From Tricharina praecox (Eukaryota): a stretch of DNA of 64,000 nucleotides. Of this stretch, positions 31,601-58,541 are shown in pieces. The translations under genes and the position numbers were made by a program. The stretch lies in assembly GCF_024521635.1 (NCBI RefSeq), contig NW_026250405.1:1-64000 (forward strand). Reading direction: 5' to 3'. Position 1 is the first letter of the stretch; each line of letters begins with the position of its first letter. The notes beneath the pieces were generated by a model. That model did no database searches. It saw only the letters and a program-made list of their open reading frames with translations, and was not told the DNA's origin.

Positions 31601-32957
31601 GAGGGTAGCTGGCGGAGGGAGGAGAAAGAAGAAGAGAAGAAGAGGAAGAAGAAGATAAAGAAGAAGGGGACGTGTGTGTGTTGACATTGCTAGATTCTTC
31701 CATACATTCGCTCCGTACATTATCCCTACAGCTGTACACTCCACCGGTGCCTCTCCATAGCATCTCGGACTTTCCTCAACTTCACCTGACTGTCTCCACC
31801 TTTAACGACTCTGCGGCGACGCCTGTGGCAATTACTTGTTTACTTCGATAATAACCCTACTTGCAGCTCGGTAGAGACGCGGACCTGCATAAACACCCCC
31901 GACGTGTCCGGCCGGCCATTATACATACCACCAGACCACACCCCCCGTCCCTCCGTCATCACTTTCGCCGTCGACTCTCGCTGAATGTCACCACCACCGC
32001 TACCTATCCTATAATCCCCACCCCTTCCACCCCCGCCAGTCAGAGTCTGTGGTCTTCGCCAGCTTGAAAGGCGGTAGCTGCTTGGATAGACTGACAGGCC
32101 GGACGACCTTTCGACGGGGCCCATATCACGACCGCAGCATCCTGCCAGCTTCTTGACACCACAGGAGTTAGAGCACCCCAGTATAGAGTACCGCGTCTCA
32201 CCCACGCACGGAAGAAGAAGAAGAAGAAGAAGAAGAATACCTGACCTGTCAATCCTCTCTCGTCTGCGGATCTTCCCCCCCTACACAACTTTCTTCGACA
32301 CACCAAGATATCTCTCTGCACTCATCTGCAAGACGGGTGGCTGCGTCCAAGCCGGATCCCTCCCTTTCCCCCCACCCCTCATCATTAGATATCGACTACT
32401 TCTAGCACTGCACGGCCGTTGAGAAAGCATTCATTTGAACGATATTTGTACTAAACAGCGGCCAGCTGGCTTTCGTGTTTGCCGTTTCGTTTTTGCATAG
32501 CTTTCTACCTGGTGTTGTCCATTGCTTTGGCGTTCAATTGATTTGGACAGGTTCGTGAACTACCCGCCTGCTATCCTGTCTTGTTATTCCCATTCCCTTC
32601 ACCGAGCCTGTCCCGGTGACCGTCCCAGTGCTAACTTCAGGGCCCGCCTTGTTAGAGGTTGAACCACCATAGAACTACATATTCCATATCGAATTGCCCT
32701 ACATACCTACTACTACCCGTCGTCTTCGCTACGCACGCCTGACCTCCTGGAAGGTGCACGGCCCCCCCTCCCCCCCCCCAATCGATTGCTCCGCTGCTGC
32801 TGGGACGGCTGTCCGCCCAAAACAAAGTGCTTAGCCAACGCCTGGCCCCATCTCACGGATCGGGATTCACCACCTGTCGGGATTGTACTCCCTACCACAC
32901 AACACCACGGGACTGCGTCGGAAACCCCCTGGCGGATAACAGCCACAGACCGGCATC

Positions 32958-38342: not shown

Positions 38343-39761
38343 CTAATGGAGGATGGATGTTTTGTGTTTTGTGTTTTGTGTTTTGTGTTTTGTTTCGTTC
38401 GCGCGCGCTTTTCATGTTGATGAATGGGACTGGACTGGACTGGGTTTGCAGTTCCTGGTTTCTGGTTTCTCTGTTACGTTACGGGGAGGCGTCGGTTTGG
38501 TTTTTTTTTCTGGGTTGTACATTAATAGCGTCTGTTCCTTTTTCTTTTTCTTCTCCACCATTTCCCTTTTTCCTTTTCCTTCTTTTTTTTCCTTTTCTTG
38601 CGAGGCATTCATTGGCTTTTTGCGAACGGGTGGTTTTTTTTTCTTCCTTCTCTTTTCTTTCTCTTCCCTTTTCTCTTTCGAGCAACTTTCTGTACTGGCA
38701 TGGCATGCAAATGGGGTTACAAAAGAACATTACATTGACTTTTTAATTCCGGGTTTTCCTAGGCTCCAGCAACATTAGTTTTCTTCTTCTCTTCTCTTCA
38801 TATTTGCTCTTCTCTTCTCTTCTTCTTTGATCTTCTTTGCTCTGTACAGCTTCACATTTTTCTTGGCAGTTTTAGACAGTGGCCGTGGTGGTGGCTGGTG
38901 GCTCGTGGTTGTGATGGTGGTGAAGGGGGTGGCGGGAAATACTCAGGCGATTTCGATATCAGGCATTCGTTGGGAGAAAGAATCGTTTTCCATTTATCAT
39001 TTCGTTTTTAATATTTTTTAACTTTTGCGTCAAGCCTGTGGGCCGTTTCTCTTACTCTCTTTTATTGTTTTCTCTTTTTCTTTACTCTTTTGATTGGGAG
39101 AAGTTGGGACTTGTTTAATGATGATTCGATGTGGATGGATGGTGGAATTGAACTGACAACTGACAAATTAACTGACAAATTATACACTGGAGGGCGCAGG
39201 TTTTTTTTTAAGTGGAAGATGTGGATGTGGATGTGTATGGCAATTGAGTGGTGAGGATTCTACGGAGGATGGCTGGACGGATGGAGGATTTATGGAGGAT
39301 GGGAATTGGGACGGGACTCTTGAGAGCCCTCTTGTGCATACTAGTAGTATTTGCATAGTATGATACAGTATTTGCATAGTATTTTGCGGTCCATTTTTGC
39401 GTGCGTGCGTGTGTACTGTAAGGACTGTGGGCCAAGTGAGGTTTCGTGATCGGATCGAGCGAGAGGGCTTACATAGAGAGGAGTCGGGAGTATGGTAGCT
39501 ACATCATCGGAAGTTAGCCCTGGGAGAGGGACGTGATAATTGATAAGATGGGATGTGCGGGAGCGTTGTGCTATCTATGTCTACAGTACAGTAAGACTGT
39601 AAGTATCAGAGCTGCGGTATGACGAGCGGACCTGTAGGCTGTCTGTCTGTCTGTCTGCCTGTCTCACCACGGTAATATCATACCTATGCTACATAGACTG
39701 CCGTCGATGGGCTATGGCCCATGGGTGAAGAACCCGTGTATGCATCTACATAGCATACTTA

Positions 39762-40103
39762 GGGCCTGTTCGAATGTTAGCTGCATTTTGAATCCACCGC
39801 CCAAAATCGAGATGCAGTTTGAAAGTTGAAACCCTCAGTTTCCGGGCGATGGATGACCTAGGTGAGCGTTCGACACACCAGTGACCACCCCAAGCTCACA
39901 ACTCGAGAAACTGCCTATTATCGACTGAGCCACAACACATAAAAAGTGCGGCGTGCTGTTGAAAATCTAGTTTGCCGAAAGGGTCAACGAGGGAGATGAG
40001 AGTTTGCAGAGAGTTTGCAGCTGCAGCTTTGGTAACCTTCAACTCGTCAGAAACCCCAGGTTCGAAAATACATGCAGCTGGCAGCGGGCAGCCGAACAGG
40101 CCC
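39762..40103. mobile_element. PIF/Harbinger (Tourist-like) MITE, 342 bp
   Basis: TTA|GGGCCTGTTCG ... CGAACAGGCCC|TTA: perfect 11-bp TIR, TTA TSD on both sides, and subterminal inverted AGCTGCAT/ATGCAGCT. Confidence 0.88.
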
Positions 40104-40954
40104 TTAGGTACACACATGTAAACACCGAACGTCGTCAAGCCTCAAGCCTCGAGCCTCAATCCTCAAGGAGGCAGGCCGTTGAGTCGTTGACCGTCTTTCT
40201 ACTTATAAAGATCCGATGATCCGATCCTCGACCCGCACCACCGGCGTCTAGTCCGCATCCGGCCGTGGCGCTTACATACGAACTTGCGCGGATAATACGG
40301 AAGTCGTCCAGACGACGCCAGTACGGTACCTACCCCACTTCTCTTGGAAACTTCTCTTGAAAGTAGTTAGGGAAGCTTGTGTCTCGGGCGAGTGCTTTCT
40401 CCACCTCTCCCCCAGCTTCCTTTTCATCACGGATGAGTAGAAGAGAGGCTGCTGCGAAAGACGAAGAGTGGATACTGACGAAGAGTGGATACTGGACACT
40501 GGAGACTAGAGACCGTTACACAGGCGCGCGAGCAGTGGTTGCTATGCTTTGTAAATGCATACATACGAGTTGATGCTGATGCTGATGCTGATCATTGTCG
40601 CTGTGTGACCGAACGGTCTGGACGGCCTGAAAGGACGGCCTGAACGGCATGACGACCTGCAGGCTAGGGCCAGGGCCATGTAGGCACAATCTATCAATCT
40701 ATAGTCGGCGAGGGGGGAGATCGACGGTTCGACTTCGCGGATAGATGCTTGGGTCAGGTCAGGTCTGAGGTAGGTAGGTAATTGCTGCCTATCTACCGTA
40801 TGTATGTCTAGTGCACAATGCGGGGAAGGGATAGATAAAAAGCCTATGTACTCCGCCAGTCGCTGCCACCATCCCATCCCACCTCAGCATTGTCTACCGG
40901 AAAGTAAGCACTTAGACACTCCCCCCCCACACACGCAAACAACAACACAACACA

Positions 40955-41815
40955 ATGGCCTCCAACCCTCCAGGAAAGTGCTGTGGCGAGGGTCACATCC
41001 ACGATGGCACCCCCAAGGGAAAGATCACCACCTTTGCCGGCGGTAACTAACCATCTCGCCCCTCCCACTGCTGGTGGCTCCGCTGACGCAGTGTCCTCAG
41101 TCGAATCCTACATCAGTCCGTCCCCCTCGGGCTCCACCTCCAAGGTCCTCTACTTCCTCACGGACATCATCGGGCACGGCTTCATCAACGCGCAGCTTTT
41201 GGCGGACGGGTACGCAGCTCACGGCTACCACGTGGTGATGCCGGACCTCTTCCGGGGCGATCCATGGCTGATGGACGCGTCCGCGCGGGTTCCTGCGGAC
41301 CTGACGCTGCCCGGGTGGGTGCAGAACCACATGCTCCCGCAAGTAGAGCCGATCGTCCTCCAAGTCCTGGAGGGAATCAAGAGCGAGCTGAAGCCGCAGA
41401 AGATCGTCGCTGTTGGCTACTGCTTCGGCGCGAAGTATGTCATTAGATTGCTCGCGAATGAGGTGCAGGCGGGATATGTCGCCCACCCGAGCTTTGTCTC
41501 CCTCGAGGAGCTCGCCGAGATTAAGGGCCCGCTTGCGATTGCCGCTGCTGGTTTGTCCCCGCCCCGTCCCCCCACTGGGTAGGTATCACGAGGCTGATGA
41601 CTCTAGAAACCGATTCCATCTTCACGACTGAGCTGCGCCACGAGACGGAGGCGAAACTGAAGGAGATGGGAGCGACGTACCAGATCAACCTTTTCGGCGG
41701 CGTCGAGCACGGCTTTTCCGTCCGCGGCGATATGTCCAAGCGCTGGGAGAAGCGGGCGAAGGAGAAGGCGTTCGAGATGGCGCTCGAGTGGTTCCAGTTC
41801 CACCTGGACGGCTAG
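40955..41815 (+). CDS. Dienelactone hydrolase family protein (AIM2-like), 248 aa, 3 exons
   Basis: MASNPPGKCC start; introns 41043-41100 and 41551-41606; nucleophile motif GYCFG, plus AHPS, ETD and HGF. Confidence 0.93.
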
Positions 41816-42865: not shown

Positions 42866-45006
42866 ATGGAGCATTCCGATCCCCCGCCGCCTCGAACCTT
42901 CGACGCGTCCTCACGCACGTCCTCGTCCTCGTCCTCCTCGTCCACGTCCTCGTCCCTGTCCAACGCCAACCTCGTCGGCCACCTCGAGCACGCTTCGATA
43001 TTCCGGCCGATAATCTTCAACGCCACCGCCACCGCAGCCCACGGGGATGACTCCTCCGCCGTCGAGACGCCGCCAGATTCCCGGCCCGAGTCGGACCACG
43101 AATTCGACGACCACCGACTACCCGCGCGCGCGGACCGGCGCAGCAGCTTCCCCGGGCTCGCGGGCAACGACGCGGGCTCGCTGAGCGATCCTCGGCGGAA
43201 GAGTGCGGCCGACGGACTGCTGGTCTCGCTTGAGAGGATCCCCGCCGAGAAGGGAGAGACCGGCCGCCGGTATGTGCTCAAGATTGACGATGAGATACGG
43301 GAGCTCCTGGCGGCTGGGGCGAGGGAACGGGTCTGGGGGAGGAAGGACGAGAAGGATGGGGGAAGGCGAAGGAGGAGGAGGTTTGGAGATCTGGTGTTCG
43401 TGGAACGGTTTACTATGTTTGATTCGATGAATCCCGAGAGCGCGAAAAGTCCGTTTCATGGGTTTTATGTGCTCATATGGTGAGGCGCCCTTTGCGGAGC
43501 GGGGTGGTTTGCAATGGCTAATGGCATGGGCTAGGTTGGGCGTGGCTCTGTTCATGATCAAGACTGCGGCGGAGAATTATAGAATTACTGGCCGGATATT
43601 CGATGTTGACATTCTGTCGATTATGTTCCAGCCGACGCACCTCTTTGACTGCCTGTTCGCCGATGCGATAATGTTCTACGGCAGTACCTTCTGGAACGTG
43701 CCGCTACAGCGTGCCGTGATGAGTGGCGTCATCTCCTGGAATAAGTCGGGGTGGATACTCCAGGCGCTATGGGAAGCCGCGTACCTCTACCTGATCGTCT
43801 CGTACACGCTCTACCGAGAGTGGCCGTGGATCCAAACCGTCTTCCTGGTACTGCACTGCATCGTCATCTTGATGAAGCAGCATTCATACAGTTTCTACAA
43901 CGGCTATCTGAGCGAGGTCTCGAAGCGGCGCAAGGTCCTCGAAGACAAGCTCGCACATCTCGAGGACGCGGGGGCAACCACGACTGGCGCGGATTTCCTG
44001 GGCGTAGACTCGCTCCGGGACCGCCGGCGCTCCTCGGTCGGCCTGCTAGACATCTCGCAGTTCCCCGATGAGCTCGATCCTCGGCAGGCCAGCCGGTTTG
44101 CCTCACTCGTACGTGCCGAGATCGAGGCGTGCGATGCCGAGCTCTCCCTAGAAGCTACAAACTCTCCACGGGTCACCTACCCGGAGAACCTCACTTTCTC
44201 GAACTACCTCGAATATATCCACTTCCCCACACTAGTCTACGAGCTCGCGTACCCACGTACGCGCTCAATCAACTGGTCATATGTCGCCGAGAAGACGGCG
44301 GCTACCTTCGGTGTCCTGGGAATCATGATCGTCGTGTCGCAGCACTTTATGTACCCCGTTGTCATCCATTGCCATTCGCTGCGTTCCCTCCCGCTCTCCG
44401 CAAGGCTTGCGGAGTTTCCGTGGATCCTGCTGAAGTTGGTGTTTCCATTCATGGTGAGTACTTACTTACCCACCCAAGTGGGTAATCCGCAGACACTAAC
44501 CAACGACGACAGGGTGAATACCTCTGTGTCTGGTACCTAATCTGGGAGCTAATCCTCAACCTGCTGGGGGAGCTCACGCGGTTCGCCGACCGCGGCTTCG
44601 CCTCCGACTGGTGGTACGTCTCCTCCTCCCTCTTCCTGCAAACCTCCCTAACCTCCACAGGAACGCCACAACCTGGGACGCCTTCGCGCGGGACTGGAAC
44701 AAGCCGGTGCACAACTTCCTATTACGGCACGTCTACCACAGCAGCATCTCAACGTTCCAGATATCGCGGGAGACGGCGACTTTGATCACGTTCCTGATCT
44801 CGGCGGCCGTGCACGAACTCGTCATGTGGTGCATCTTTGGCAAGCTAAGGGGTTACCTGCTGCTCGCGCAGATGTTCCAGCTGCCGCTGGTGAGTCTGAG
44901 TAGGACCCGGCTCATGAGGGATCGGAAGACGCTGGGAAATGTACTATTCTGGATCGGTATCTGGACTGGCCCGAGTTTTTTGAGCGCGAGTTATTTGATA
45001 CTGTAG
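42866..45006 (+). CDS. Sterol O-acyltransferase (ARE/ACAT, MBOAT family), 659 aa, 4 exons
   Basis: Introns 43480-43534, 44454-44512 and 44614-44660. Motifs SPFHGFY, MKQHSY, FPTLVYELAYPRT, ELTRFADRGFASDWWN, WNKPVHNFLLRHVY and SAAVHE. Confidence 0.95.
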
Positions 45007-45628
45007 GCGCAGGGGATATACTACAATCTATAGTACATGGAATAAAGTTTTGGCGGTGATTGAGAGCGGTCTAGATGACTTGTTTGATTGTACAATATTA
45101 TGCAACGCTGGCAACCGACGAAGGGGTCGGAAGTAGATGGAACTCCGCATACCTACTGAGAGATCGAAATCGTGTGACCGTATGAATAGAGAAGGGAAAA
45201 CGTCCACGGTCGAGATCTTATGAACATGTAACCACACTTCCCCCATCACGCTAAACCTGAACCACAACCCCTCATGGGCTCTCACTCGCGGGCACATGAT
45301 GAATTCCAGTTTCGCCGACAATGGCGGGTGATGCTGCGGCATGGTCGCCTAGAGTTCTGTCTGCACTCTGGTGCTGACAAATATTGGACGATAAGAGTTC
45401 TCGGAATCCCTCACAGACCGAAGATTCGTTGTCCCATAGGATCGGAAGACTAGCTTTGCGGCTAGGTAGAGCCTGTCTAGGCCGCAAAACGGGGGAAATA
45501 TGGTCATGTGTTTATGGCACTGGGTATGTCAGATGGGGTATTACAACGGAAGGCCGTATGTATCACGTTCGGCCAAGTAATGGGAGCAAAACAGTCCAAT
45601 TCCCGCAAGCAAAACACCGTCTACATAG

Positions 45629-48600
45629 CTAGCCTCTAACCCTCAATCCCTCCAACGCGCGGGCTACACTCTCGGCGGCGGCGGCGCCGTCGCTTCTCCC
45701 AGAAACACTGAAGCTGTCCATCCTCCTGGCGGACCCACCAGTGCCGACCCTTCTCAGCGGGACCTTGAGCGAGTCCCTCGGACTCCCGGGCAGCGCCGAC
45801 CCCCGCGACTCCCCAGACCCTGAGGACGCACTGCTAGCACTCCTTGAAAGATCCTCCACTCTGCGCTCGCGGGAGTGCGCGCGTCGGCCGCGACTCTCGT
45901 CGCGGAGATGGGTCCTCCGCTCCACTTGCACGGGTGTGGGAGCCCGGCTCCCCGACCGCTCCTCCCGATCGCTTTCTCTTTCTCTTTCCCTTTCCCTTGC
46001 ACTGGGACGGCCCATGGCGTGCTCGAGGCTCGTGAGATCCACGCGGCTGAGCCGCCGGATCGCCTTGAGGTTCCCGGAGAGGAACGTGCTCACCCGGTTT
46101 ACCGCTTTGCGGTCGAGGTGTTTTTCGTAGCTGCTGGCACCGCGGCCGGTGTCGAAGGCTCGGAGGGTGTGCGAGTCTGCTAGTCTCCTGGGCGCGGATG
46201 GAGAGTGGAGTCGCGGGGAGCGAGATGGAACGTGTGGGCTTTGTTGTTGTTGGACCATGGCGTTGGCTTGGGAGATGACTCGGTCGAATGAAATGCTCTC
46301 TCGCTGTCTCCCGCGTGGGACCTTCTGGATGGAGAGTGGCTTGGTTGGGAACGCATCAAAGTGCTCTGAGTCAAGGGTCAGGTCCTGCGTGTACAAGAAG
46401 AAGCTTCCGTCCTGTATCCTCCGGCGAACCAGACGCCACCGGGCGCGCGCCGGGTTGTGTTCGAGTTCGGGATGGTAGAGCGACTGCGCCGAGAGCTCGA
46501 CGAAGTATGTGTCCAGACGCTCCGCGATGCGTTCGAGGAGGGAGACTAGGAAGGCGGCGAGTTTGAACAGACGCTGTTTCTCGGATGCCGCTCCCCCCTT
46601 CAGAGACATGACCAGATCGAAGCCGTCCATGCCAGTGCAGATTTCCTCACGTACTTGCTCGAGGAAGCGGACGTCGAGTTCGGTGACGGCCTGGGCGTAC
46701 TGTATTATGCCCCGCTCGAAGGACTGCGCCGTGGAGCTGTCGCATACATATTCGCCCACTTGGGCGATCTCTCGTTGGGCAGTGGTGGATGCTGCCGAAG
46801 ACTGGGCACGAGCGACAATGCCCATTACGTCTGGCAGGCGAGAATCGGAGTTGTGCGCGGAGACGAGCGTGAAGGAAAGTTTGACGTAGAGCTCTTGCAG
46901 TCTGGTATTGATCAGTATGGAGAGTTTTGGATCAGCATGGGCGGGACTTACTTCGATCCGAACAGAGTCGTGAAACCGTCTTGCATCAGTCGGGACTGGA
47001 ACTGGTAGAACTTCCGAACACCGCCCATATTCAGCATTCCACCCGAGAACCAGATGTTTGCATCCGCCATAATGGCTTTGACCTCGAAGGAAAGCGTCGT
47101 CAAGCTCTCTACACACGTTCGGAGATAGCCCAGCCAGCCATCATACAGCACACCCAATTCTGGCGAGTGGAAATTTGGTTTCGCAGCGAGGTGACCAACA
47201 AAATATTTCGAAAGCAGACTTGTGACCTCTGGATTGGTGGTGTGGGCTAGATCATCGAAAGTTTTGGATGCATCGAGCCCTGCGCTGCCGGCGACGATCA
47301 TCGAGCCTCCGGGATGGATTGGAAGGAATTCGGTCACGTCGTAGACAGCGCCGTGTACTCCGGTCCACATCCTTGATCCCTCTCTGTGGCCCGTGAAACG
47401 AGAGAGCGTGGAAATCGGGATGATGGGCTCTTTAAACGACATTGCCCTTGGGGCCATGAAGATATCCAGCATGAACCTGCGCTCGGCGAAAGCAGTAGCC
47501 AAGAGTGCCTCGGCCGACTTCTGCGTAACCCCCCTCGTTTGATACATCGCTTTCGTTATCCCACTCATGACCGTTTCGTAGACGGAGACCGAGCCACAGA
47601 TGAAGAGGTAGCCACCTAGCCCGCCCTGCTTCGTCGACATGACAAGATCACAGATGAGATTTCTCTTCTCGATGATGGCGGCGTCCAGGTATCGTGGCTC
47701 CGTCTCTCTCTCAACTAGGTCCTGTGTGCTTTGGTCGTAAACGAGACCTTTCGTGTCCCGAGAGAACGATGTGTGTAGCTCGAGGCCGTCGTATCGCACG
47801 TGTTCACGGAGTTCCTCCTCGTACACGAACTTCTTGCGAGATTGAACAGCGAGAAAGAGGATGTTCCTCCCCACGGCGCCGCTGGCGAATCTTGCCTGCC
47901 AGAATCCCCGGAAAGGAGCGATACCTGAGCCGCCGGCAAACATGGCGACGGGAGCGGCGGGAGAGATAGGAAGCTGGAAGTTGAGGGGACGAGATATTCC
48001 AATCAAGACCTGAAAAGAGTCAGAATGCATCAAACATCGAGAGTGGAAGCGTGCGCTACCGTTTCTGCCTCAATGCCCTTGACGGCCTTGAACCCCCCCT
48101 TGACCTCGTCCTCCTCTTCATCTGGATGTGGATTCAAGAAGCCACTGCTGACACCGGACCGGACTATATCTTTACTTCCATCGAAAGCAAGTAGGGAGCA
48201 CAGCTTGTGCTCCACCCGGGATACTGTTAGGTTGATAAAGCTTGGTAGGAGCTCGGATGAATGGCTAGAGATGCTGTATGTTCTCGGGACTTCTACGTGA
48301 ACCAGTTTGGGGAGCCATGCCAGGTCACTGGGGAAGGCCTGATCCCAAAGGGTGGAAGATACGTCTGATCGTGCAACGAGAAGCAAATCTCCGAGCGAGC
48401 CACTCACAGGCCATGCCTCGGCAGATAGAACTTCTAATAGCGCGTAGGAGGAAGCGCGGAGCATCACATGTATCTGTGCTCCTCTGTTAGCATCTCTATT
48501 TTCTGGTAGGAAAAGTATGACACTCACAGCTAGTACAAGCTCCTTTGTCAATGGAGACAGATGTCCGCGACGCAAGATGTCTCTCAAACTGAACTCCCCG

Positions 48601-50767
48601 GTCTTTGGATCCCGCGTGACATCCGACACATGCGTCGAGAACCGCTTCCAGTCATCCGCCATCTCCAGCGAAATAATCTCATCAAGACGGTCGGTCGCAC
48701 CCAAAACTTGCGCCAACTTTGCAACTTCTCTCCACGGGTTTAGCGGCATGATGGCTAGTCTGTCGCCAGGGCAAAATGTCATGCCGGTATTTCTCAAATC
48801 GATCGTCACTTGTCCAGTCGAACGGTCCGGATCTCTGTCGATGGAGTCGCGGCGGGCAATAGTCGCTCTAAACCGGCACTCTTCAAAGCAGCCCCTCATC
48901 TCATGGGGCTTCAACGATATCGAACTGCGGAATGGGTCCAGCCGCTCGATCATCGATTCCGAAAGAGTTCGGTGGACTTCTTCCCAAGGACGGCCTTCGG
49001 TATCTTGGCCACCGGCATTACCGTTAGTTTCAGTCCTGCCGGTCTTTGCTACCACTTCAAGGAACCCATAAACTTTATCTGAATCAGGTATCAGTTGCTT
49101 TCACTCGCCTGGAACCCCCCATGAGCACATACATCTATGGGTTCCCATGAAACCGCGTTCGCCAGCGTAGGACTCCACGATCCCGTCCATCACACCGATC
49201 AGACGCTTGTCACCTGTAGATGCCACATACTTCGGGACCTGGTAATACTGCTCGAAGGAAGCAATAAAGGCGCGGTGGTTGAGAGGCAACCACGCCCTCA
49301 GATGCAGTGCTTCCAGGCCAAGGAAGGTGTCGTACTTTGTTCGGCCGAGAAACGCATCCATAAGCTGAAAGAGAGGAAGAGCGAGCCCCGAGAGCGCTGG
49401 CACTCTCTTGGATAATGGCGCGCTGAACTTTGCGTATCTACAGCCGTTCGTGAGAATCTCATCAAAACCATGTATGGACTAGGAGTAGGGTTGGAGTCGG
49501 ACCTTTGGCCCCACTCTACGGGATTTGCATATAGCTCTCCACTCCCGGGATTAACACTAATTTTATGGAAGACGTATCCGAGTTGGTCGATGATGCCCTT
49601 CAGTTTCACCAACTCAACCAATAGGCCTTCGTTGTCTCTGTCACCATCATCGTTAGAATACCATCTCAGTTGAAGATTGTGAAGCACAAACCTCTCCATC
49701 ACCATCTCTTGACACCTCGTAACAATCTCCACACCATCGGTGAAGCACCCATGCACTTCCGCCATACACAAGAGGAACATCGCCTCGGCCCGATCCTGGA
49801 AGACTGGCCATCTCAGGTCCATATTTTCCGCTCGGGCGACGTAAGGATATACGCTGGTGTGATCTTTGATTTTGTAGTTGTAAATGGAAACGTCGTATTG
49901 CGTCAGATGCGGTAGAGGCCGTCCCATCCTTGTGCACAGTGTCCGAAAGGGGATCGCTATATTCCTGGGAATTCCTTTCAACTCCTCCTCGCACTCGTCC
50001 TCCTGCATTATGGCACTTTGAGATGCTATTGCGGCACTGCCGATGGTTGCTATTCCCTCATGACCGTCGTTCCTCTCCTCGTATCGATATACCGATGCTA
50101 GAATACCCAAGCAGATCGTCGCGGCCCATAAGGCCTGGTTCGGGATAACGTCTTCCGTTCCCATCACCGTGGGAAGGTCCAGGATAGCCTCTCGAATCTT
50201 TCCTCTTCCAACGAGCCCGGGCATGCGTCCACACAGATCCGACCACATACGCCCCGGGCAAGCAGCAAGAGCGATCGGAGAAGCGCTGGGATCCGGTGGG
50301 CAAAAGCCCCACTTGCTCGTCAGATAGCCGTCACGGTATCCCGTCTTTGGACCGAGAGCGTCCGCCCTCATCAGCACACGCCGAGCAGGTGCCCCCAGGG
50401 CAGCGGCCAGGATGTCGTGGTCTGAGGGGCACAGGCCGTCGGCGTTTCGGAGGCCTTTTACGGCTTCCTTTGTGGGTGCGGTGGGGATCAACATCTCCAC
50501 CATTGTCTTCTGTTCCTGAGCGTGTAGCTGCGCGGCTGCATCGGGTCCTTGGGGTGACTGAAAGAGATTGTTAGTGTGTCTTCATGATAGGGAGCTGAGG
50601 TGACTAACATTATACAGCATGCCCTGTGCCTCCATCTGGAATCCAGAGAACGCACATCCTCTCGGCCCCGTTCTTGTGCGAGCGGAATTTCCAGCGTGTG
50701 AGACGGAACAGGAACCTAAGCCCGTGCGTCCACTCTGCGGACAAGTGAGGGGAGTATCGACTGGCAT
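45629..50767 (-). CDS. Multidomain flavohemoprotein: IDO/PrnB-like heme domain + FAD/NAD(P)H reductase (CPR/NOS-type, no FMN domain) + cytochrome b5 + unknown helical domain; ~1586 aa, 8 exons
   Basis: Introns 50558-50608, 49638-49691, 49438-49502, 49079-49132, 48474-48527, 48010-48059 and 46902-46951 are all GT-AG and give one open frame of 4761 nt. Motifs: LSGLALPLFQLMDAFLG, LRAWLPLNHRAFI and GTHRYKVYGFL (IDO-like); PGDRLAIMPLN, PRTYSISS, GVSSGFL, AGGSGIAPFRGF, FSRD, ICGS and RFMLDIF (reductase); VYDVTEFLPIHPGG...FDDLAH (b5). Confidence 0.9.
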
Positions 50768-51261
50768 AGCGCGGCCGTTATGAGATGGTGATGGTGATTT
50801 AGAAAATAAAGAATACGCGACAGCGGGCTCAAAGAAGATTACTATAGAGCGGAAACGAAGAAAGGTCACCGACCCGTCCGAAGATTATGATGTACGGTAG
50901 GAAAACGGCTTGCTGGTGATCACCGGGAAACACGCAATGCAGAAGCGGACACGAAAAGGTAAGTGATGGAGGTGGGATATAAAGGTCCCCGTGCTCTGCG
51001 GATCAATCTGGGCTGTTCTTCGGAAACCAAGATTCCACATAGACTGCATTGTTGGTTGCCTGATGCACATGGGGTGCTGAAGAAGACTCTTCCCGCGCGA
51101 GTGTTTCAATCCCTGACGGGCAGCAAAACCTATGTATTCCACGGACTCAGCTCACGATGCTGACTGGGATTGCAAAGGCGAACCGGATCCCTCCATTCGT
51201 CTCCGATCGATGAGACACCGAGAGCTGACTTGGCAGGGGCCAATCTCGCGTTTCGGAAGAG

Positions 51262-51337: not shown

Positions 51338-52169
51338 TGCAGAGACGCACGAAACCCGGTGTTCTGCGTAGTTGGAAGAGTAGTTGGAAGAGTCGTTGGA
51401 AGAGAAATCTATGTGGGCTTGTCTCTGGCGACTGAACCCAGTGGGAATTCTCAGCCTGGAAAGCAACAAGGTCAGTACTCACGGTGATTTGTTCTGCATA
51501 CATACGGCCAGCTCTACTAATGCGCTCACCAGTAAATCTGCCCCAATCTCCACAGCCAAAAGATGTCCCGGTTGACCTACTACGCCTCCAGATTCCACGC
51601 TCAGACTGGAACACGGTGGTCGCCAGCTGGCCGCCGTATGGGTTTGCTTCGGAAGCCGAACGAACGTCGCTACATACCGTAACGTTTCGCATGATGCGAC
51701 GCGAACAATGCATTATCTGACGTGCAAAGGTGTAACAAACTGCACGGCGTCGCGTCGGTTGGAACTTACCGCGCTTAATCTACGGCATATGGGCATATGA
51801 ACCGTCATGGAAGCGGAGTTCGCTACTTCATCGGGAAGGAAGGAGGTCGCGAAACCCTGCCCTAAGCCCAAACTCCGGCCGTCGGCGGTGATGCTTTGAC
51901 AGAGTTCTGCCTATCCGGAGCAGAGCGTGAGTTCAGCCGGTACAACAAGCGCCAAACTGCGCCGAAAAGACGAAACCACCTGCCAGCACTTACCTGATGT
52001 ACCAGTATGTATCGTATGCGACGGACGGCCTTTTCGTTTCAAACACTGGAAAGAGTACGCAATCGCAACTCAGGCCTCGACCATAACCTCGGCTTCGTTC
52101 ACGATCATGGGCTTGAGAGCACATGGCCAATCATGAAAACCCATCCTGCTGGAGCGCGTTGGCCGTGCT

Positions 52170-54045
52170 CTGATCGACACCACGATATTTTGTCTCATCT
52201 GCAGCCGGAGGAAAAGCAAGTCACTGGCAATAAACAGTCACCTACAGAGCAGCGACAGCATAAAGTAGGCATACGCAGGCAGCATTCACGTGGCCGACAC
52301 TACCATTTGGATGATGGTATGATTATTCACAACAATACCGACTGTTTGGTCATACCGCAAGTCAAGGACCTCAAGTACCGTATCCTGCGAGAGGCACATG
52401 CTGCCGCGGTTGGAGGCCACTTCGGAGTCACAAGGACCTACAAAGCTGTTGCAAGAAGGTTTTTCTGGCCACGAATGTATCAGGAAGTCAAACGCTACGT
52501 ACAGGGCTGTGCGACCTGTGCATGCACAAAGTCAACAAATCAAAAGCCATATGGACTCTTGCAGCCCTTGGACGTTCCGGACGAGCGGTGGCGGAGAATC
52601 AATATTGACTTCATTACCAAGCTACCGACGACAAAGGATGGGAGCGATACAATTATCACTATTGTCGACGCTTTGACCAAGCGGGCACATTGGATCGCAG
52701 CCAAAGAAAAAGAATTAACTGCAGTCAAGTTTGCTGAGATATTCCGCGACTGCTATGTACGGTATCATGGGCTCCCGGATGCCATTGTGTCTGATCGTGA
52801 TGTGCGATTCACATTCACATTCTGGCAGACTCTTATGAGTGAATTCGACACCAAGCTCCGTATGTCAACAGCATTTCACCCGCAGACTGATGGACAAGAA
52901 GAAAAGGCAAATTCGATTGTTGAGAGATATCTGAGTGCTTATGCGGGAGAACGCCAGAATGAATGGAATCAACTGCTGGCACTCGCAGAATTCGCATACA
53001 ACGCAACCCGACAGAAGTCAATCGAAATGTCTCCATTTGAAGCTGATCTCTCCTATGTCCTTCGCATGCCACTCGATGCCCTTGCGAGCGTGGGAAAAGA
53101 ACGCAGCCGGAGAGAAGATCTGAGAAGCAGGTCAAAGGTGGAATTTCCTGCGGATGGTCGAACATTTGCAGCGGAAATGGTGACCACGCTTACACTACTG
53201 CGACAGAATCTTCAGCACGCGCAGGAACAGCAAGTAGCGGAGGCCAACAAGCATCGGCAACCACATACTTTTCAGCAAGGGGACAAGGTTCTGCTTTCAA
53301 CAAAGAACCTACCAATAACATACGCTACCGACACTGATAACCACCGCAAGGCCCTACACCAGAAGTACATCGGAGAGTTTGAACTGGGCCGGCAGCAGGG
53401 GGAGAACGCCTTCGAAGTACTGCTGCCAGCACACTGGAAGTTGGCACGTACACAGAATGCTGCCCTGCTTAAACCTTCCATGATTGATCACTCTTGGCCA
53501 CAGGCACCGGCACCTGCATTACGTGTCACACGACGTGGGGTGGATACCCAAGCGGATTATGGAGTGGAAGCTATTCGCTCATGGCGCCGGAACCCTGACC
53601 AGGGAGGTCGAATTGAGTACGAGGTCAAATTTGAGGATGATGATGAGTTGTCATGGGAGCCAGGGGAGATGTTCGATGGCGGAGGAAAGGAGATACTGGA
53701 AGAGTTTCAAGCGGCTGATGAGAAGTTGAAGCGTCAGTTGGCAGTGGAGACGGCGAAGCAGAAGCCGGGGAGGCCTCAGAAGCGACGGAAGAGGCAAGCG
53801 TGGGTGATGGAGGTAGAAGACGGGGCGGATATCACGGTTTTCGAACCGGAGGATTGGGAAGACTGAGATACGGTGTTTCTTTTTTGTCAACCGGGAGGTG
53901 ATGTAGGGTTGTAGATAGGGTAGGGTTGTGGATAGGCCCGAGTGACGACGGATGTACGGAAGTAGATAGACTTCGGGTCCTCGACCCTCTCTTCCCAATC
54001 AACCAACCTTTCCCCACCTACAGTTGGTGTTCGCCGTAGTCTACA
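52170..54045 (+). mobile_element. 5'-truncated Ty3/gypsy chromovirus LTR retrotransposon (integrase + chromodomain + PPT + 3' LTR)
   Basis: The open frame to 53866 has HHCC (EAH..GHFG..CATC), D-D-E (NIDF, VSDRD, GQEE), GPY/F-like KYIGEF and a chromodomain (YGVEAIR..EYEVKF..SWEP). No gag, protease or RT is seen upstream. The 5' junction is approximate. Confidence 0.93.
53902..54022 (+). repeat. Putative 3' LTR (TGTAGG...CCTACA; alternative end at 54045)
   Basis: Follows the purine-rich gggaggtga and has inverted TG..CA termini. No second copy is present in the window to confirm it. Confidence 0.6.
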
Positions 54046-56650: not shown

Positions 56651-58541
56651 ATGGCGTCGCTACTGTCTCGCTTCAGTGTCGTTCCCCAATTCCCAGCTTA
56701 TAAGGGCCCATACACGGTAGCCTCGTTCGAACTTGAAATCCCAGTGTCGTCGTTGCCCGCATCCCAGAGACCTCCGAACTACGCCGAGTCGATATCGACG
56801 GTGCAGTTCCGCGTATTTTATCCGACGGCGCAGAAGTTCAAGCCCCAGGCGCCCGAAAGTGCCCCGGCTGCCCGGGAAGCGGAAAAGCCGAAGGATGTAA
56901 CGAATGGGGATAAAGCAAAAGCAGGATGGTCGCACGGGTGGTTTCACCGACATTGCCACCATGAACCCCAACCCTCGAAATCCGTATATTGGCTGCCCGA
57001 ACCCCATCAGCGGGAATATCTCAGTGGCTATGCGCGGTTCATGGGTGCCGGCTCCGGGCTTGCCGAGCTGATATCGTAAGGCCCGGAAATCTTGTCTCCT
57101 GCCGAGGATATTCCGTTAACCTCCCGTCAGATATATTCCGCGGATTCTCCACCATATCGCTCTCCCCGCCATCTCTTTGGCTCCATTGATGCCGTCGAGT
57201 GCGGAATTTAGATTTCCGACCATGATATTTTCTCACGGTCTGGGCGGAACCCGATTGGCATACTCACACCTCTGTGGTTCTCTGGCGTCTCACGGCATGG
57301 TCGTGATCGCGCCAGAGCATCGCGACGGTAGTGCGCCAGTGACTTTCGTCAAGTCGGGATTGCAACCCAGCAGTGAAACCGAGTTGACGGGCACGCAGCC
57401 GAATACCGGGGAACCCGGGGTCAGCTCTGCTTCCGCGGCTAGTTCCGCCTCTCCATCTCGGGCCCAGGTCGACTTCGTCAACTATCCCCATAAGATCTCG
57501 GAGGAAACCGCAAATGGACGGAATAGGCAGCTCGAGATCCGCCTCTGGGAGCTCTCCATCGTCTATGCTGCGATCGCACAACTCGATCTCGGAAAGATAC
57601 CGTGTGGAACGGCCATGTTCGATGCGGATAATGTAACCCGCGACTCTACCCTCGCCGCGTTCAAGGATAAGCTAGATATCCGAAAGCCAGGCCGGCTGGT
57701 GTGGGCTGGCCACTCTTTCGGGTCATCGACGATGATCCAGATGATGAAGTCCGTCTACTACAGCAACAAGATCGACTTCGAAGACAAACCCCTCTTTGTA
57801 CCCGACGCTTCAGTTCCCCACAACGAACCCAGCGCCTTACCGCTCAGCGAGCAGATCACGGGCTCATCGCCGCTCATGCTGCTAGACATCTGGTGTCTCC
57901 CTCTCCTCAGCAAACGCACGAGATCCCTGTGGAAGCAGCCGCTGCCGCAGATCGGCTCCGGCAACCCTGGCAAGGTTCTCGTAGTGATGTCGGAGGAGTT
58001 CTTCATCTGGCGCGAGAATCTGCGCGGCGTACGCCGCATCCTCTCACTCGATCCTGGACGCCGCCGCGAAGGCAAGGAACACGAAGTGTTCGAACAGTTC
58101 TCGTCGCGGGTAGCCACCGAAAACGCAAAGCACGGAGAGACGGGATTCTATCCGGACAACGACCCTGCCACTCCCGCTGCCACCGAAACGTTGACTGTTG
58201 CTCCCACCAGCTCGAAGGAAAAGAGCGTGCGACTGTGCTACGTCAAGGAATCGGCGCACCTGAGTCAGAGCGACTTCGGAATACTGTTTCCAAGAGCAAT
58301 CAAGAAGGCGGTTGAGCCGGCCGCCATCCTGGATCTCAATGTCCGCGCGGCGTGTCAGTGGCTGCGCGAGAACGGGTTCGAGGGACAGATTGCGGGGTAC
58401 ACCGCTGCTGATGCTGCGGATGTGGATGGGACCGCGGAGAAGCTCGAGGAGATGCAGAGCAGTGCTCAAGGTGCTGGAGACCGGGAGATTGTTGGTGGCG
58501 ATTTTGGTCGCTGGGCTGCTATTCCCCTCGAGGATGATTGA
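56651..58541 (+). CDS. Platelet-activating factor acetylhydrolase-like alpha/beta hydrolase (PAF-AH II family), 611 aa, 2 exons
   Basis: FPAYKGPYTVASFELEIP, VQFRVFYP, FSHGLGG, HRDGSA, GHSFG nucleophile elbow, LDIW and HLSQSDF. Intron 57076-57130. Confidence 0.93.

What the first reader, a model, noticed from the sequence alone, without database searches (positions are those of the whole stretch)
45629..50767. Putative self-sufficient heme enzyme: IDO/PrnB-like domain fused to a diflavin-reductase FAD/NADPH module and cytochrome b5
Seen: six track ORF fragments splice through seven canonical introns into one ~1586-aa frame. The N-terminal part (~50350-49030) carries segments resembling human IDO1. 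LSGLALPLFQLMDAFLG matches GSAGQSSVFQCFDVLLG, LRAWLPLNHRAFIASFE matches MRRYMPPAHRNFLCSLE, and GTHRYKV places a His (codon 49137-49139) at the proximal heme-ligand position. Next come a CPR/NOS-type FAD and NADPH module (~48880-47460) and a b5 domain with both axial His residues (~47420-47190). Established: IDO/TDO/PrnB-superfamily enzymes need ferrous heme, and cytochrome b5 with a reductase is a proposed physiological reductant of IDO. Inference: the whole NAD(P)H -> FAD -> b5 heme -> catalytic heme chain is wired into one polypeptide. The changed GSAGQ loop (SGLAL) suggests chemistry or a substrate other than classical Trp dioxygenation. Automated pipelines could mislabel it as NOS or P450 reductase. 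I know of no biochemical characterisation, but could not search.
Basis: partly seen in the sequence, partly recalled or inferred. Interest (0 to 1): 0.9.

Follow-up and report, generated by a model that had tools for sequence, protein, structure and literature searches.

The report
IDO-like haem enzyme with built-in reductase
This is one real, spliced fungal gene for a large enzyme that joins a haem domain shaped like indoleamine dioxygenase to its own NADPH/FAD and cytochrome b5 electron supply; the same design occurs widely in fungi and bacteria, and I found no study of what it does.

Summary
On the minus strand, 50767-45629, eight exons and seven GT-AG introns give a 1586-aa frame. Contigs of two public runs join across all seven introns. 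One 3660-nt contig links the second half of the IDO part to the C-terminus.

Domains:
- IDO-fold haem domain. Pfam IDO scores above cut-off. An AF2 model of a 65%-identical homologue matches IDO2 at Z 35.3 and IDO1 at Z 34.3.
- CPR/SiR-type FAD+NADPH module with no FMN domain.
- Cytochrome b5 with both axial His.

The design is not rare. Of 120 listed fungal homologues, 107 carry all four Pfam families. Bacteria have full-length homologues (hhalign E 1e-137), often downstream of a CBS-pair gene (40 of 73 loci).

The substrate is unknown, and Trp dioxygenation is not supported. Ten literature searches found no characterisation. Fungal "NOS-like" knockouts probably concern this family.

Caveat: the RNA-type contigs use an intron-4 acceptor 6 nt downstream. 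That removes two residues next to the presumed proximal His.

The parts
45629..50767 (-). Whole coding region: 8 exons, 7 introns, 1586 aa by the homology-guided model, stop codon at 45629-45631
   Evidence: Splicing script. tblastn of P0001. Joined contigs.
50609..50767 (-). Exon 1 (aa 1-53). Holds the fungal N-terminal Cys motif: CP at aa 9-10 and GPRGCAF at aa 34-40.
   Evidence: Motif counts: CP present in 67 of 115 sequences, G[PA]RGC.F in 64 of 115. Thirty of the 115 gene models lack the N-terminus.
50558..50608 (-). Intron 1 (51 nt, GT..AG)
   Evidence: Joint 50557/50609 in runs X1 and X2.
49692..50557 (-). Exon 2 (aa 54-341): first half of the IDO-like domain
   Evidence: Pfam IDO 1.3e-9, profile positions 9-210 of 412.
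49638..49691 (-). Intron 2 (54 nt)
   Evidence: Joint 49637/49692 in X2 only; the X1 contig ends before it.
49503..49637 (-). Exon 3 (aa 342-386)
49438..49502 (-). Intron 3 (65 nt)
   Evidence: Joint in X1 and X2.
49133..49437 (-). Exon 4 (aa 387-488). Carries the SGLALPLFQLMD loop, LRAWLPLNHRAF and GTHR.
   Evidence: The only PDB sequence hits are IDO1/IDO2, 25 of 25.
49137..49139 (-). Codon of His487, the presumed proximal haem ligand
   Evidence: Conserved in 114 of 115 fungal sequences. The column is invariant in 85 of 85 bacterial sequences as H367. The two are aligned to each other by hhalign.
49079..49132 (-). Intron 4 as modelled by homology (54 nt). The contigs skip 49073-49132 (60 nt) instead.
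   Evidence: The longer skip turns HRYKVYGF into HRFYGF.
48528..49078 (-). Exon 5 (aa 489-672): end of the IDO-like domain and start of the FAD domain. In the contigs it begins at 49072.
   Evidence: FAD_binding_1 4.1e-12.
48474..48527 (-). Intron 5 (54 nt)
   Evidence: Joint in X1 and X2.
48060..48473 (-). Exon 6 (aa 673-810): FAD domain with the RTYSISS motif
   Evidence: R.YS[IV]S found in 112 of 114 homologues.
48010..48059 (-). Intron 6 (50 nt)
   Evidence: Joint 48007/48058, 'cut +2', in X1 and X2.
46952..48009 (-). Exon 7 (aa 811-1162): NADPH domain, cytochrome b5, and the start of the C-terminal helical domain
   Evidence: NAD_binding_1 6.5e-8 and Cyt-b5 1.6e-13.
47455..48956 (-). CPR/SiR-type FAD + NADPH module (about aa 530-995), with no FMN domain
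   Evidence: Model of homologue P0032: SiR-FP60 1ddg_A Z 34.5, rmsd 3.3 A, 365 aligned; BM3 FAD domain Z 33.3. No flavodoxin family found at E <= 1 in 4 full-length homologues.
47185..47418 (-). Cytochrome b5 domain (about aa 1008-1085). Axial His codons at 47314-47316 (H1042, HPGG) and 47242-47244 (H1066).
   Evidence: Pfam. H1042 conserved in 111 of 115 and H1066 in 114 of 115. b5 1f03_A Z 14.1, rmsd 1.5 A, 81 aligned.
46902..46951 (-). Intron 7 (50 nt)
   Evidence: Joint in X1 and X2.
46385..47172 (-). Conserved all-helical C-terminal domain (about aa 1090-1335; intron 7 lies inside it). No Pfam family.
   Evidence: Conservation. hhalign fungal vs bacterial runs to column 1140 of 1190. Long helices with pLDDT >90 in the bacterial model. 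No Pfam hit.
45632..46384 (-). Poorly conserved Arg/Ser/Glu-rich tail (aa 1336-1586), probably disordered
   Evidence: Conservation profile. Sequence.

Best explanation
WHAT IT IS. The locus is one expressed gene for a soluble, multi-domain flavocytochrome of about 1585 aa.

SHOWN (by sequence, profile and fold comparison), the domain order:
1. A short Cys-motif N-terminus, specific to fungi.
2. An IDO-fold haem domain.
3. A CPR/sulfite-reductase-type FAD + NADPH module that lacks the FMN domain.
4. A cytochrome b5 domain with both axial His.
5. A roughly 250-aa helical domain that is also present in bacterial homologues.
6. A disordered tail.

INFERRED, the mechanism:
- NADPH reduces the FAD.
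- The FAD passes single electrons to the b5 haem, which takes the place of the missing FMN domain.
- b5 reduces the IDO-fold haem, ligated by His487, to Fe(II).
- That haem binds O2 and oxidises a substrate.

So the redox partners that IDO-type enzymes normally borrow are built in.

The substrate is not known. The evidence leans away from plain tryptophan-to-formylkynurenine catabolism. It leans towards either an electron-consuming oxygenation or a regulated, signalling-type reaction.
For: ONE GENE.
- Open 1586-codon frame after removing 7 GT-AG introns.
- Collinear with P0001.
- A 3660-nt contig spans 45681-49619, linking the C-terminal domain, b5, NADPH, FAD and half of the IDO part.

IDO FOLD.
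- Pfam IDO above cut-off.
- AF2 model of P0032 (65% identical, equals aa 64-1171 of the gene product): pLDDT 82.9, pTM 0.84.
- That model matches IDO2 21ok_A at Z 35.3, rmsd 2.6 A, 355 aligned; IDO1 5wmu_A at Z 34.3, rmsd 2.4 A, 350 of 381; PrnB at Z 25.7.
- Bacterial homologue model: pLDDT 90.7; IDO2 Z 40.0; IDO1 Z 38.6, rmsd 2.2 A, 354 aligned.
- A profile of the bacterial IDO-like domain hits only IDO1/IDO2 in the PDB, 25 of 25, best E 1.3e-30.

HAEM LIGAND.
- His487 is kept in 114 of 115 fungal sequences, and its column is invariant in 85 of 85 bacterial sequences.
- The other invariant His of the fungal domain's last helices, H524, aligns with bacterial columns that are not invariant.
- The motif H[RK]YKV[YF]G occurs in 109 of 114 fungal homologues, and H[RK].K.[YF]G in 78 of 85 bacterial ones.

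REDUCTASE AND b5.
- RTYSISS-type FAD motif in 112 of 114 homologues, GGSGIAPF in 109 of 114, HPGG in 110 of 114.
- Invariant Cys948.
- Fold matches to SiR-FP60, the BM3 and nNOS FAD domains, and b5.

SELECTION ON THE WHOLE CHAIN.
- 107 of the 120 listed fungal homologues carry all four Pfam families.
- Fungal and bacterial families align over 1093 columns, probability 100, E 1e-137.
Against: - No cofactor, electron transfer or activity has been measured for any member that I could find.
- No sequence alignment reaches the presumed proximal His. HMMER alignments to IDO1 stop 4-7 residues before it. Pfam IDO matches end at profile position 341 of 412 or earlier. The assignment therefore rests on invariance and on fold alignments that span the region. 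I could not see those alignments residue by residue.
- Contigs of both runs use an intron-4 acceptor 6 nt downstream. This gives HRFYGF in place of HRYKVYGF. That spacing occurs in 0 of 114 fungal and 0 of 85 bacterial homologues. The main message of this organism may therefore encode a shifted helix next to the His.
- A dioxygenase needs electrons only for reactivation. The fused chain alone does not say which chemistry is done.
Confidence: 0.7

Rival explanations
1. It is an ordinary tryptophan 2,3-dioxygenating IDO of the kynurenine pathway. The fused reductase and b5 only keep the haem ferrous after autoxidation.
For: - Closest solved folds are IDO2 and IDO1, which score higher than PrnB.
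- The loop and helix around IDO1 VFQCFDVLLG and MRRYMPPAHRNF are recognisably kept.
- Recalled, not from a call: cytochrome b5 with a reductase is a proposed physiological reductant of IDO1.
Against: - Pfam IDO matches only about the first half to four fifths of the profile.
- HMMER leaves IDO1 chain positions 221-259 unaligned. From recall, that stretch carries the substrate contacts F226, F227 and R231.
- The GGSAGQ loop reads ALSGLA here.
- In 73 bacterial loci, no neighbour cluster found in 3 or more loci was identified as a kynurenine-pathway gene. The recurrent neighbour is a CBS-pair protein. Only the larger clusters were put through Pfam.
- A 1:1 fused NADPH chain kept from bacteria to fungi is more typical of enzymes that use electrons at every turnover. 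This last point is inference.
Confidence: 0.15
2. It is an NO-related enzyme: either the long-sought fungal 'NOS-like' NO source, or an NO dioxygenase that works like flavohaemoglobin (ferrous-oxy haem re-reduced by its own reductase).
For: - Sources name members 'related to nitric-oxide synthase'.
- The layout, a haem domain plus an NADPH/FAD reductase, parallels NOS and flavohaemoglobin. The nNOS FAD domain matches at Z 30.2.
- Relatives carry regulatory modules: an N-terminal FHA domain in many bacterial forms, EF-hands in Rhodelphis, and a CBS-pair gene just upstream in 39 of 73 bacterial loci.
- The review PMC10889981 (passages read) reports that cloned 'iNOS-like' proteins of Inonotus and Shiraia showed activity. 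In PMC4948021 Table 1 the Inonotus sequence KP052853 hits the same two Neurospora genes as NOL2 and NOL3.
Against: - No NOS oxygenase family was found in any Pfam scan at E <= 1. There is no FMN domain.
- Neurospora knockouts of NCU05185 and NCU05006 kept normal NO staining (PMC4948021 and PMC10607626, passages read).
- Magnaporthe NOL2/NOL3 mutants still made NO, as reported in PMC4778047 and PMC4929157. The original paper was not held.
- That these genes belong to this family is my inference. It rests on their paired E = 0 hits and much weaker hits to CPR. I could not show it directly.
Confidence: 0.12
3. The IDO-fold domain is a gas or redox sensor rather than a catalyst. It gates the reductase/b5 output towards another acceptor, or towards the C-terminal domain.
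For: - The conserved C-terminal helical domain has no assigned function.
- The regulatory company: CBS, FHA, EF-hand, and histidine kinases in 17 of 73 loci.
- Recalled: IDO-fold proteins serve as oxygen-binding myoglobins in some molluscs.
Against: - The distal-side stretches aligned to IDO1 (SYIDL..YNW, and the SG loop) are strongly conserved, as expected of an active site.
- No downstream output domain is recognisable.
Confidence: 0.08

Closest known systems
Indoleamine 2,3-dioxygenase 1/2 (Pfam PF01231) with its separate reductants
   Same: Same fold (Z 34-40, rmsd 2.2-2.9 A over 350-368 residues). Recognisable sequence blocks. A conserved His lies in the helix that follows the same blocks.
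   Different: Here the reductant chain is covalently attached. The last ~70 positions of the Pfam profile do not match. IDO1 positions 221-259 do not align. The GGSAGQ loop is changed. Activity is unknown.
Self-sufficient haem enzymes with a CPR-type reductase (P450 BM3/CYP102, nitric-oxide synthase)
   Same: A haem catalytic domain and an NADPH/FAD module in one chain. The FAD/NADPH module matches the BM3 and nNOS modules at Z 30-35.
   Different: There is no FMN/flavodoxin domain; a b5 haem sits where a one-electron shuttle is needed. The catalytic haem is presumably His-ligated in an IDO fold, not Cys-ligated. There is no NOS oxygenase or P450 family.
FAD-b5 fusions: Ncb5or, assimilatory nitrate reductase, fungal b5/b5-reductase fusion (CBBR, abstract of PMC12462446 seen in listing)
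   Same: The NAD(P)H -> FAD -> b5 haem segment is in one polypeptide.
   Different: Those use the small FNR/b5-reductase-type FAD domain and a different terminal centre or a separate acceptor. Here the FAD domain is the CPR/SiR type (best match SiR-FP60) and the acceptor is an IDO-fold haem.
PrnB and SO4414-type bacterial IDO-superfamily proteins
   Same: Same superfamily fold (PrnB Z 24-26, SO4414 1zee Z 23).
   Different: These match clearly less well than IDO1/2. They are stand-alone proteins without redox domains.
Fungal 'NOS-like' genes (Magnaporthe NOL2/NOL3, Neurospora NCU05185/NCU05006, Inonotus/Shiraia iNOSL)
   Same: Probably the same family. NOL2 and NOL3 each hit two large Neurospora proteins at E = 0 but CPR only at 1e-19 to 1e-27 (PMC4948021 Table 1). 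NCU05185 is labelled 'NADPH-P450 reductase' (PMC6468284). A 1611-aa Pyricularia oryzae 70-15 member is labelled 'NADPH-ferrihemoprotein reductase'.
   Different: Identity with this family was not shown here. In the passages I read, those papers treat the genes as NOS relatives through the reductase part and do not mention an IDO domain.

Membership tests
IDO family (Pfam PF01231) / IDO-TDO-PrnB superfamily | Significant match to the family profile | tested here: met
   Window exon 2 alone scores 37.8 bits against a cut-off of 26. Homologues score 44-63 bits. The match covers only profile positions ~8-211 of 412.
IDO family (Pfam PF01231) / IDO-TDO-PrnB superfamily | IDO fold (small plus large helical domain) | tested here: met
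   Tested on models of a 65%-identical fungal homologue and a bacterial homologue, not on the window's own spliced protein. IDO2 Z 35.3 and 40.0; IDO1 Z 34.3 and 38.6.
IDO family (Pfam PF01231) / IDO-TDO-PrnB superfamily | Proximal His ligand to the haem iron (His346 in human IDO1, number recalled) | tested here: inconclusive
   His487 is conserved in 114 of 115 fungal and 85 of 85 bacterial sequences. It starts the helix after the aligned blocks. No sequence alignment reaches it, and the fold alignments were not shown residue by residue.
IDO family (Pfam PF01231) / IDO-TDO-PrnB superfamily | Tryptophan-binding residues and Trp dioxygenase activity | tested here: inconclusive
   IDO1 positions 221-259 are left unaligned by HMMER. 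That these hold F226, F227 and R231 is recalled. Activity is not testable with these tools.
Diflavin reductases (CPR, NOS reductase, SiR flavoprotein, MSR) | FAD_binding_1 + NAD_binding_1 module with FAD and NADPH motifs | tested here: met
   Pfam. Motifs. SiR-FP60 Z 34.5 and 37.1.
Diflavin reductases (CPR, NOS reductase, SiR flavoprotein, MSR) | FMN-binding flavodoxin domain | tested here: not met
   No flavodoxin family at E <= 1 in 4 of 4 full-length homologues, and none in the window ORFs. Between the IDO and FAD domains the chain has no room for one.
Cytochrome b5 (PF00173) | Profile match, HPGG motif and second axial His | tested here: met
   50.9 bits against a cut-off of 23.7. H1042 in 111 of 115 and H1066 in 114 of 115. 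b5 1f03_A Z 14.1, rmsd 1.5 A.
Nitric-oxide synthase | NOS oxygenase domain (Cys-ligated haem, pterin site) | tested here: not met
   No such Pfam family at E <= 1 in 4 homologues or in the window ORFs. The N-terminal domain has the IDO fold.
Nitric-oxide synthase | Arginine-dependent NO formation | not testable with these tools
   Only indirect literature is available. Knockouts of probable family members kept NO (PMC4948021, passages and Table 1 read).

The most novel reading that the evidence does not exclude
The gene belongs to an ancient family, reaching from bacteria to fungi, of regulated and electron-consuming IDO-fold flavocytochromes. They would make or remove a small signalling molecule: NO, a reactive oxygen species, or an indole-derived signal. 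That would be a further class of self-sufficient haem 'synthase' beside NOS, NOX and flavohaemoglobin. CBS-pair partners, FHA domains or EF-hands would control it in different lineages, and in fungi it could account for the unexplained 'NOS-like' activity.
Probability: 0.2. Interest if true: 0.9.

Novelty: new variant of a known kind. Interest (0 to 1): 0.62.

Why it matters
- Which system keeps IDO-type haem ferrous in cells has long been debated. A natural fusion of an IDO-fold domain to NADPH/FAD and b5 modules, kept intact from Chloroflexota and Streptomyces to chytrids and truffles, is a 'Rosetta stone' in favour of the b5 route. It also offers a one-protein system in which to test that route.
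- The family is large, and every source I saw names it after its reductase part. Hundreds of genomes therefore carry a mis-described haem enzyme of unknown chemistry.
- If the fungal 'NOS-like' genes are indeed this family, the negative NO results from their knockouts need re-reading. The catalytic domain is IDO-like, not NOS-like.
- The bacterial two-gene unit with a CBS-pair protein gives a tractable route to the function.

Tried and rejected
STRUCTURE AND FAMILY SEARCHES
- Foldseek against the PDB with the whole 1166-aa model. The listed rows were all reductase matches, so the IDO part could not be judged there. I used the all-against-representatives aligner instead.
- P0038 as an IDO-only query. 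It is a chimeric gene model carrying an Ada2/SWIRM part.
- P0122, a 479-aa Pyricularia fragment. It ends one residue before the His, so I did not fold it.
- ESM Atlas for the C-terminal domain, fungal and bacterial: no usable hit.
- Pfam and NCBIfam give no family for the C-terminal domain, and no NCBIfam model reaches its cut-off for the whole protein.
Its fold therefore remains unassigned, not 'new'.

GENOME AND EARLIER NOTES
- No whole genome is held for the window.
- Earlier notes of the scan hold nothing relevant.

RNA
- No RNA holder is listed. The two runs that hold the stretch have no recorded kind. Three soil metatranscriptome runs hold next to none of its words.
- Only contigs could be laid, so the share of the two intron-4 acceptors cannot be measured.

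LITERATURE
- Searches for the fusion found nothing on it. One search was swamped by 'cytochrome b558'.
- Samalova et al. 2013 and the Inonotus iNOSL paper are not held. I did not ask for any supplements.
- My attempt to tie NCU05185 to the family found no Neurospora crassa row among the 120 listed.

ALIGNMENT TO THE IDO1 HIS
- No tool gave a residue-level alignment of the His to IDO1 His346.

ARTEFACT READINGS REJECTED
- Pseudogene or annotation artefact: rejected by the open frame, the conservation and the joined contigs.
- Separate neighbouring genes: rejected by the 3660-nt contig.

Full report
1. THE OBSERVATION

The minus strand between 50767 and 45629 holds five long ORF fragments in changing frames. 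I located seven GT..AG introns of 51, 54, 65, 54, 54, 50 and 50 nt from the sequence and from a tblastn alignment of the best homologue. That homologue is P0001, a 1659-aa hypothetical protein of Kalaharituber pfeilii. It gave four HSPs at 74, 74, 77 and 67% identity.

Joining the eight exons gives an uninterrupted 1586-codon frame from ATG 50767 to the stop at 45629-45631. The first in-frame ATG is the one at 50767; the upstream in-frame stretch has none before a stop.

2. TRANSCRIPT-TYPE EVIDENCE

No run on record as RNA holds the stretch. Two runs of unrecorded kind, from two studies, hold 0.84 and 0.79 of its sampled words. Laid on 45300-51000, their contigs are 99+% identical and carry joints with CT..AC ends on the plus strand at all seven introns.

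- Six joints equal my introns. Intron 2 is seen in X2 only. Intron 6 matches after the tool's 'cut +2'.
- One X1 contig of 3660 nt runs from 45681 to 49619. It links the C-terminal domain, b5, the NADPH and FAD domains and the second half of the IDO-like domain in one molecule.
- Another contig runs from 49851 past the ATG to at least 51000.

The exception is intron 4. Both runs skip 49073-49132 (60 nt) rather than 49079-49132. This changes ...GTHR-YKV-YGFLE... to ...GTHR-F-YGFLE..., for a total of 1584 aa. The longer form is the one kept elsewhere:

- H[RK]YKV[YF]G occurs in 109 of 114 fungal homologues, and H[RK].K.[YF]G in 78 of 85 bacterial ones.
- The shortened spacing occurs in 0 of 114 fungal and 0 of 85 bacterial homologues.

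Contigs drop minor variants, so I cannot tell whether both acceptors are used. This remains unexplained, and it lies right next to the presumed haem ligand.

3. THE DOMAINS

Pfam on the raw exon ORFs finds IDO, FAD_binding_1, NAD_binding_1 and Cyt-b5, all above their curated cut-offs. It finds nothing in the last 500 aa. Full-length homologues give the same four families and no flavodoxin or NOS-oxygenase family at E <= 1.

The spliced protein itself could not be handed to the folding tool. I therefore folded P0032, which is 1166 aa, 65% identical and equal to residues 64-1171, using a 90-sequence alignment. The result was mean pLDDT 82.9 and pTM 0.84.

Aligned against 48,161 PDB representatives:

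| Part | Best matches |
|---|---|
| N-terminal domain | IDO2 21ok_A: Z 35.3, rmsd 2.6 A, 355 residues. IDO1 5wmu_A: Z 34.3, rmsd 2.4 A, 350 of 381. PrnB: Z 25.7. |
| Middle | SiR-FP60: Z 34.5. BM3 FAD domain: Z 33.3. nNOS FAD/NADP domain: Z 30.2. |
| b5 region | Bovine b5: Z 14.1, rmsd 1.5 A, 81 residues. |

Exon 4 alone hits only IDO1/IDO2 in the PDB, 25 of 25 hits, and aligns LFQLMDAFLG and LRAWLPLNHRAFIASFE to the IDO1 stretches named.

4. COFACTOR RESIDUES

In an alignment of 115 sequences, made of the model plus 114 homologues of 1350 aa or more:

- His487 is kept in 114.
- The b5 ligands His1042 and His1066 are kept in 111 and 114.
- Cys948 is kept in all 115.

The FAD motif R.YS[IV]S, the NADPH motif GGSGIAPF and HPGG are present in 112, 109 and 110 of 114 homologues.

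His487 is aligned by hhalign to the invariant His367 of the bacterial family. The only other invariant His in the last helices of the fungal domain, H524, falls on bacterial columns that are not invariant.

No sequence method aligns His487 with IDO1 directly. The HMMER alignments stop 4-7 residues earlier, and Pfam matches end by profile position 341 of 412. The fold alignments span IDO1 to residue 400-403, and the His begins the helix that follows the aligned blocks. I therefore rate the proximal-ligand assignment as probable, not shown.

After b5 comes a conserved region of about 250 aa (about aa 1090-1335; for example YQFQSRL and NPARARW). It is all-helical in both models and has pLDDT above 90 in the bacterial one. 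It has no Pfam, NCBIfam or Atlas match. A poorly conserved Arg/Ser/Glu-rich tail follows.

At the N-terminus, fungal members share a motif CP...CP...GPRGC(A/S)FSG. CP occurs in 67 of 115 sequences and G[PA]RGC.F in 64 of 115; 30 gene models lack the N-terminus. The window's protein keeps the first CP and GPRGCAF.

6. HOW COMMON IT IS

The first-exon query found 168 longer homologues. Of the 120 listed, 107 carry all four Pfam families and most are 1400-1700 aa. They span Pezizomycetes, Leotio-, Dothideo-, Eurotio- and Sordariomycetes, Agaricomycetes and two chytrids. In a FastTree of 115 sequences the window's protein groups with Kalaharituber, Trichophaea and Ascobolus, and a long-branched second clade holds 63 sequences.

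A search of 1.84 billion representatives found 243 proteins at E <= 0.001. Of 26 sampled, 11 carry all four families. Some have extra modules: FHA, EF-hand, GGACT or a 6PGDH-like reductase. The EF-hand forms are from Rhodelphis marinus. Forms of 2367-2600 aa are from Cyphellophora.

One of the ~1100-aa forms retrieved 753 proteins at E <= 1e-10. The named rows among them are Chloroflexota, Vicinamibacterales and Streptomyces. In one genome per prokaryote species, 225 of 256 pattern matches encode a relative. The 73 loci kept include Streptomyces, Pseudonocardia, Cryptosporangium, Ktedonospora, Oligoflexus, Polyangiaceae, Poribacteria and others.

Fungal and bacterial families align over 1093 columns with probability 100 and E 1e-137, including the C-terminal domain. 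The bacterial protein P0366 folds with pLDDT 90.7 and pTM 0.90. Its first domain matches IDO2 at Z 40.0 and IDO1 at Z 38.6. A profile of the bacterial IDO-like domain hits only IDO1/IDO2 in the PDB, 25 of 25, best E 1.3e-30.

7. CONTEXT

In the window, the neighbours are a convergent MBOAT gene and a Ty3-type integrase remnant. No biosynthetic cluster is evident.

In bacteria, clustering all ORFs of 100 aa or more from the 73 loci gave one neighbour that recurs across phyla: a CBS-pair protein of about 141-185 aa (Pfam CBS twice) in 40 of 73 loci. In 39 of these it lies directly upstream on the same strand, mostly within -22 to +358 nt. Six of the 33 loci without it have under 400 nt of upstream flank.

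Other recurrent neighbours are PAS/MEDS histidine kinases (17 loci), cNMP-binding proteins and FHA-ABC transporters. Several of these sit in related Chloroflexota and may reflect synteny. No kynurenine-pathway neighbour was recognised among the clusters I put through Pfam.

8. MECHANISM

The domain content and order, and the conservation of the cofactor motifs, are shown. The rest is inferred:

- NADPH reduces FAD in the CPR/SiR-type module.
- There is no FMN domain, so the b5 haem serves as the one-electron carrier, as it does in nitrate reductase or Ncb5or.
- b5 then reduces the IDO-fold haem, which binds O2.

Which reaction follows is open.

Points against plain Trp catabolism:
- The partial profile match.
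- The unaligned IDO1 stretch 221-259, which from recall holds F226, F227 and R231.
- The changed GGSAGQ loop.
- The regulatory rather than catabolic company in bacteria.

Points against a true NOS: the absence of a NOS oxygenase domain and of an FMN domain.

9. LITERATURE

Ten full-text searches found no paper on an IDO-reductase-b5 fusion.

Fungal 'NOS-like' genes are probably this family. In PMC4948021 (passages and Table 1 read), Magnaporthe NOL2 and NOL3 each hit Neurospora NCU05185 and NCU05006 at E = 0, but hit the true CPR NCU09741 only at 1e-19 to 1e-27. The Inonotus sequence KP052853 hits the same two genes at E = 0. Knockouts of NCU05185 and NCU05006 kept normal NO staining, growth and conidiation (also PMC10607626, passage read).

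PMC4778047 and PMC4929157 (passages read) report that NOL2/NOL3 mutants still make NO. PMC10889981 (passages read) cites activity of cloned 'iNOS-like' proteins from Inonotus and Shiraia.

I could not confirm membership by sequence. The original Magnaporthe and Inonotus papers are not held, and no N. crassa row appeared. A 1611-aa Pyricularia oryzae 70-15 member does exist, labelled 'NADPH-ferrihemoprotein reductase'.

10. VERDICT

- The gene is one ordinary member of a large, ancient family that every source I saw names after its reductase part, and for which I found no biochemical study.
- The design is a new variant of known kinds (self-sufficient haem enzymes, and IDO with b5-type reductants), not a categorically new system.
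- Its value lies in the natural IDO-b5-reductase fusion, the unknown chemistry, the bacterial CBS partnership and the likely link to the fungal 'NOS-like' puzzle.
- The intron-4 acceptor seen in the contigs is an open problem for this particular gene.

Noticed in passing
window 49072-49133: Contigs of two runs use an intron-4 acceptor 6 nt downstream of the homology-supported one (tandem ..TTCAG ATAAAG..). This deletes two residues, including a Lys invariant from bacteria to fungi, right after the presumed proximal His.
   Followed up: partly
window 50633-50767 (aa 1-45): Fungal-specific N-terminal motif CP...CP...GPRGC(A/S)FSG. CP dipeptides recall haem-regulatory motifs (recalled). This protein keeps the first CP and GPRGCAF, but has SCS in place of the second CP.
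   Followed up: partly
L005:7250-7675, L008:6793-7257, L011:7459-7893 and 37 further bacterial loci: A small CBS-pair protein is encoded directly upstream of the bacterial homologue, on the same strand, in 39 of 73 loci from at least eight phyla. The two genes are likely an operon.
   Followed up: partly
proteins P0163, P0170, P0181, P0185 (2367-2600 aa); P0168, P0178: Giant versions occur in Cyphellophora, with about 1400 extra C-terminal residues carrying no Pfam family. EF-hand-bearing versions occur in Rhodelphis marinus. Bacterial versions carry an N-terminal FHA domain, GGACT or a 6PGDH-like reductase.
   Followed up: partly
window 51998-53866 (+): A long ORF with a Ty3/gypsy-type integrase (Integrase_H2C2, zf-H2C2, Tf2-1 SH3) lies just upstream of the gene's 5' end. 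It is a retrotransposon remnant or copy.
   Followed up: no
window 43431-45006 (+): An MBOAT-family O-acyltransferase gene in at least two exon fragments, convergent with the 3' end of the gene.
   Followed up: no
window 50768-51000: A contig of run X1 continues at least 233 nt upstream of the ATG without a joint. This suggests a long 5' leader; its true start was not seen.
   Followed up: no
window 1572-2072 (-), 17042-18685 (-), 23811-25454 (+), 32940-38342 (+), 40908-41582 (+), 57120-58541 (+): Other ORFs with Pfam families, in the order of the coordinates: HbpS-like haem-degrading protein, HET domain, protein kinase, an 1800-aa ORF with Mcp5_PH, dienelactone hydrolase, PAF acetylhydrolase.
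   Followed up: no
window 26001-28000 and 38001-40000: Two 2-kb bins with G+C near 0.48 against about 0.55 elsewhere. The second also has strong skews (GC skew 0.17, AT skew -0.23).
   Followed up: no
L010:7152-11843, L019:7155-11870: In Oligoflexus and a Polyangiaceae genome, the open frame of the homologue extends about 280 aa upstream of the matched part (1563-1571 aa). This may be a further N-terminal domain.
   Followed up: no
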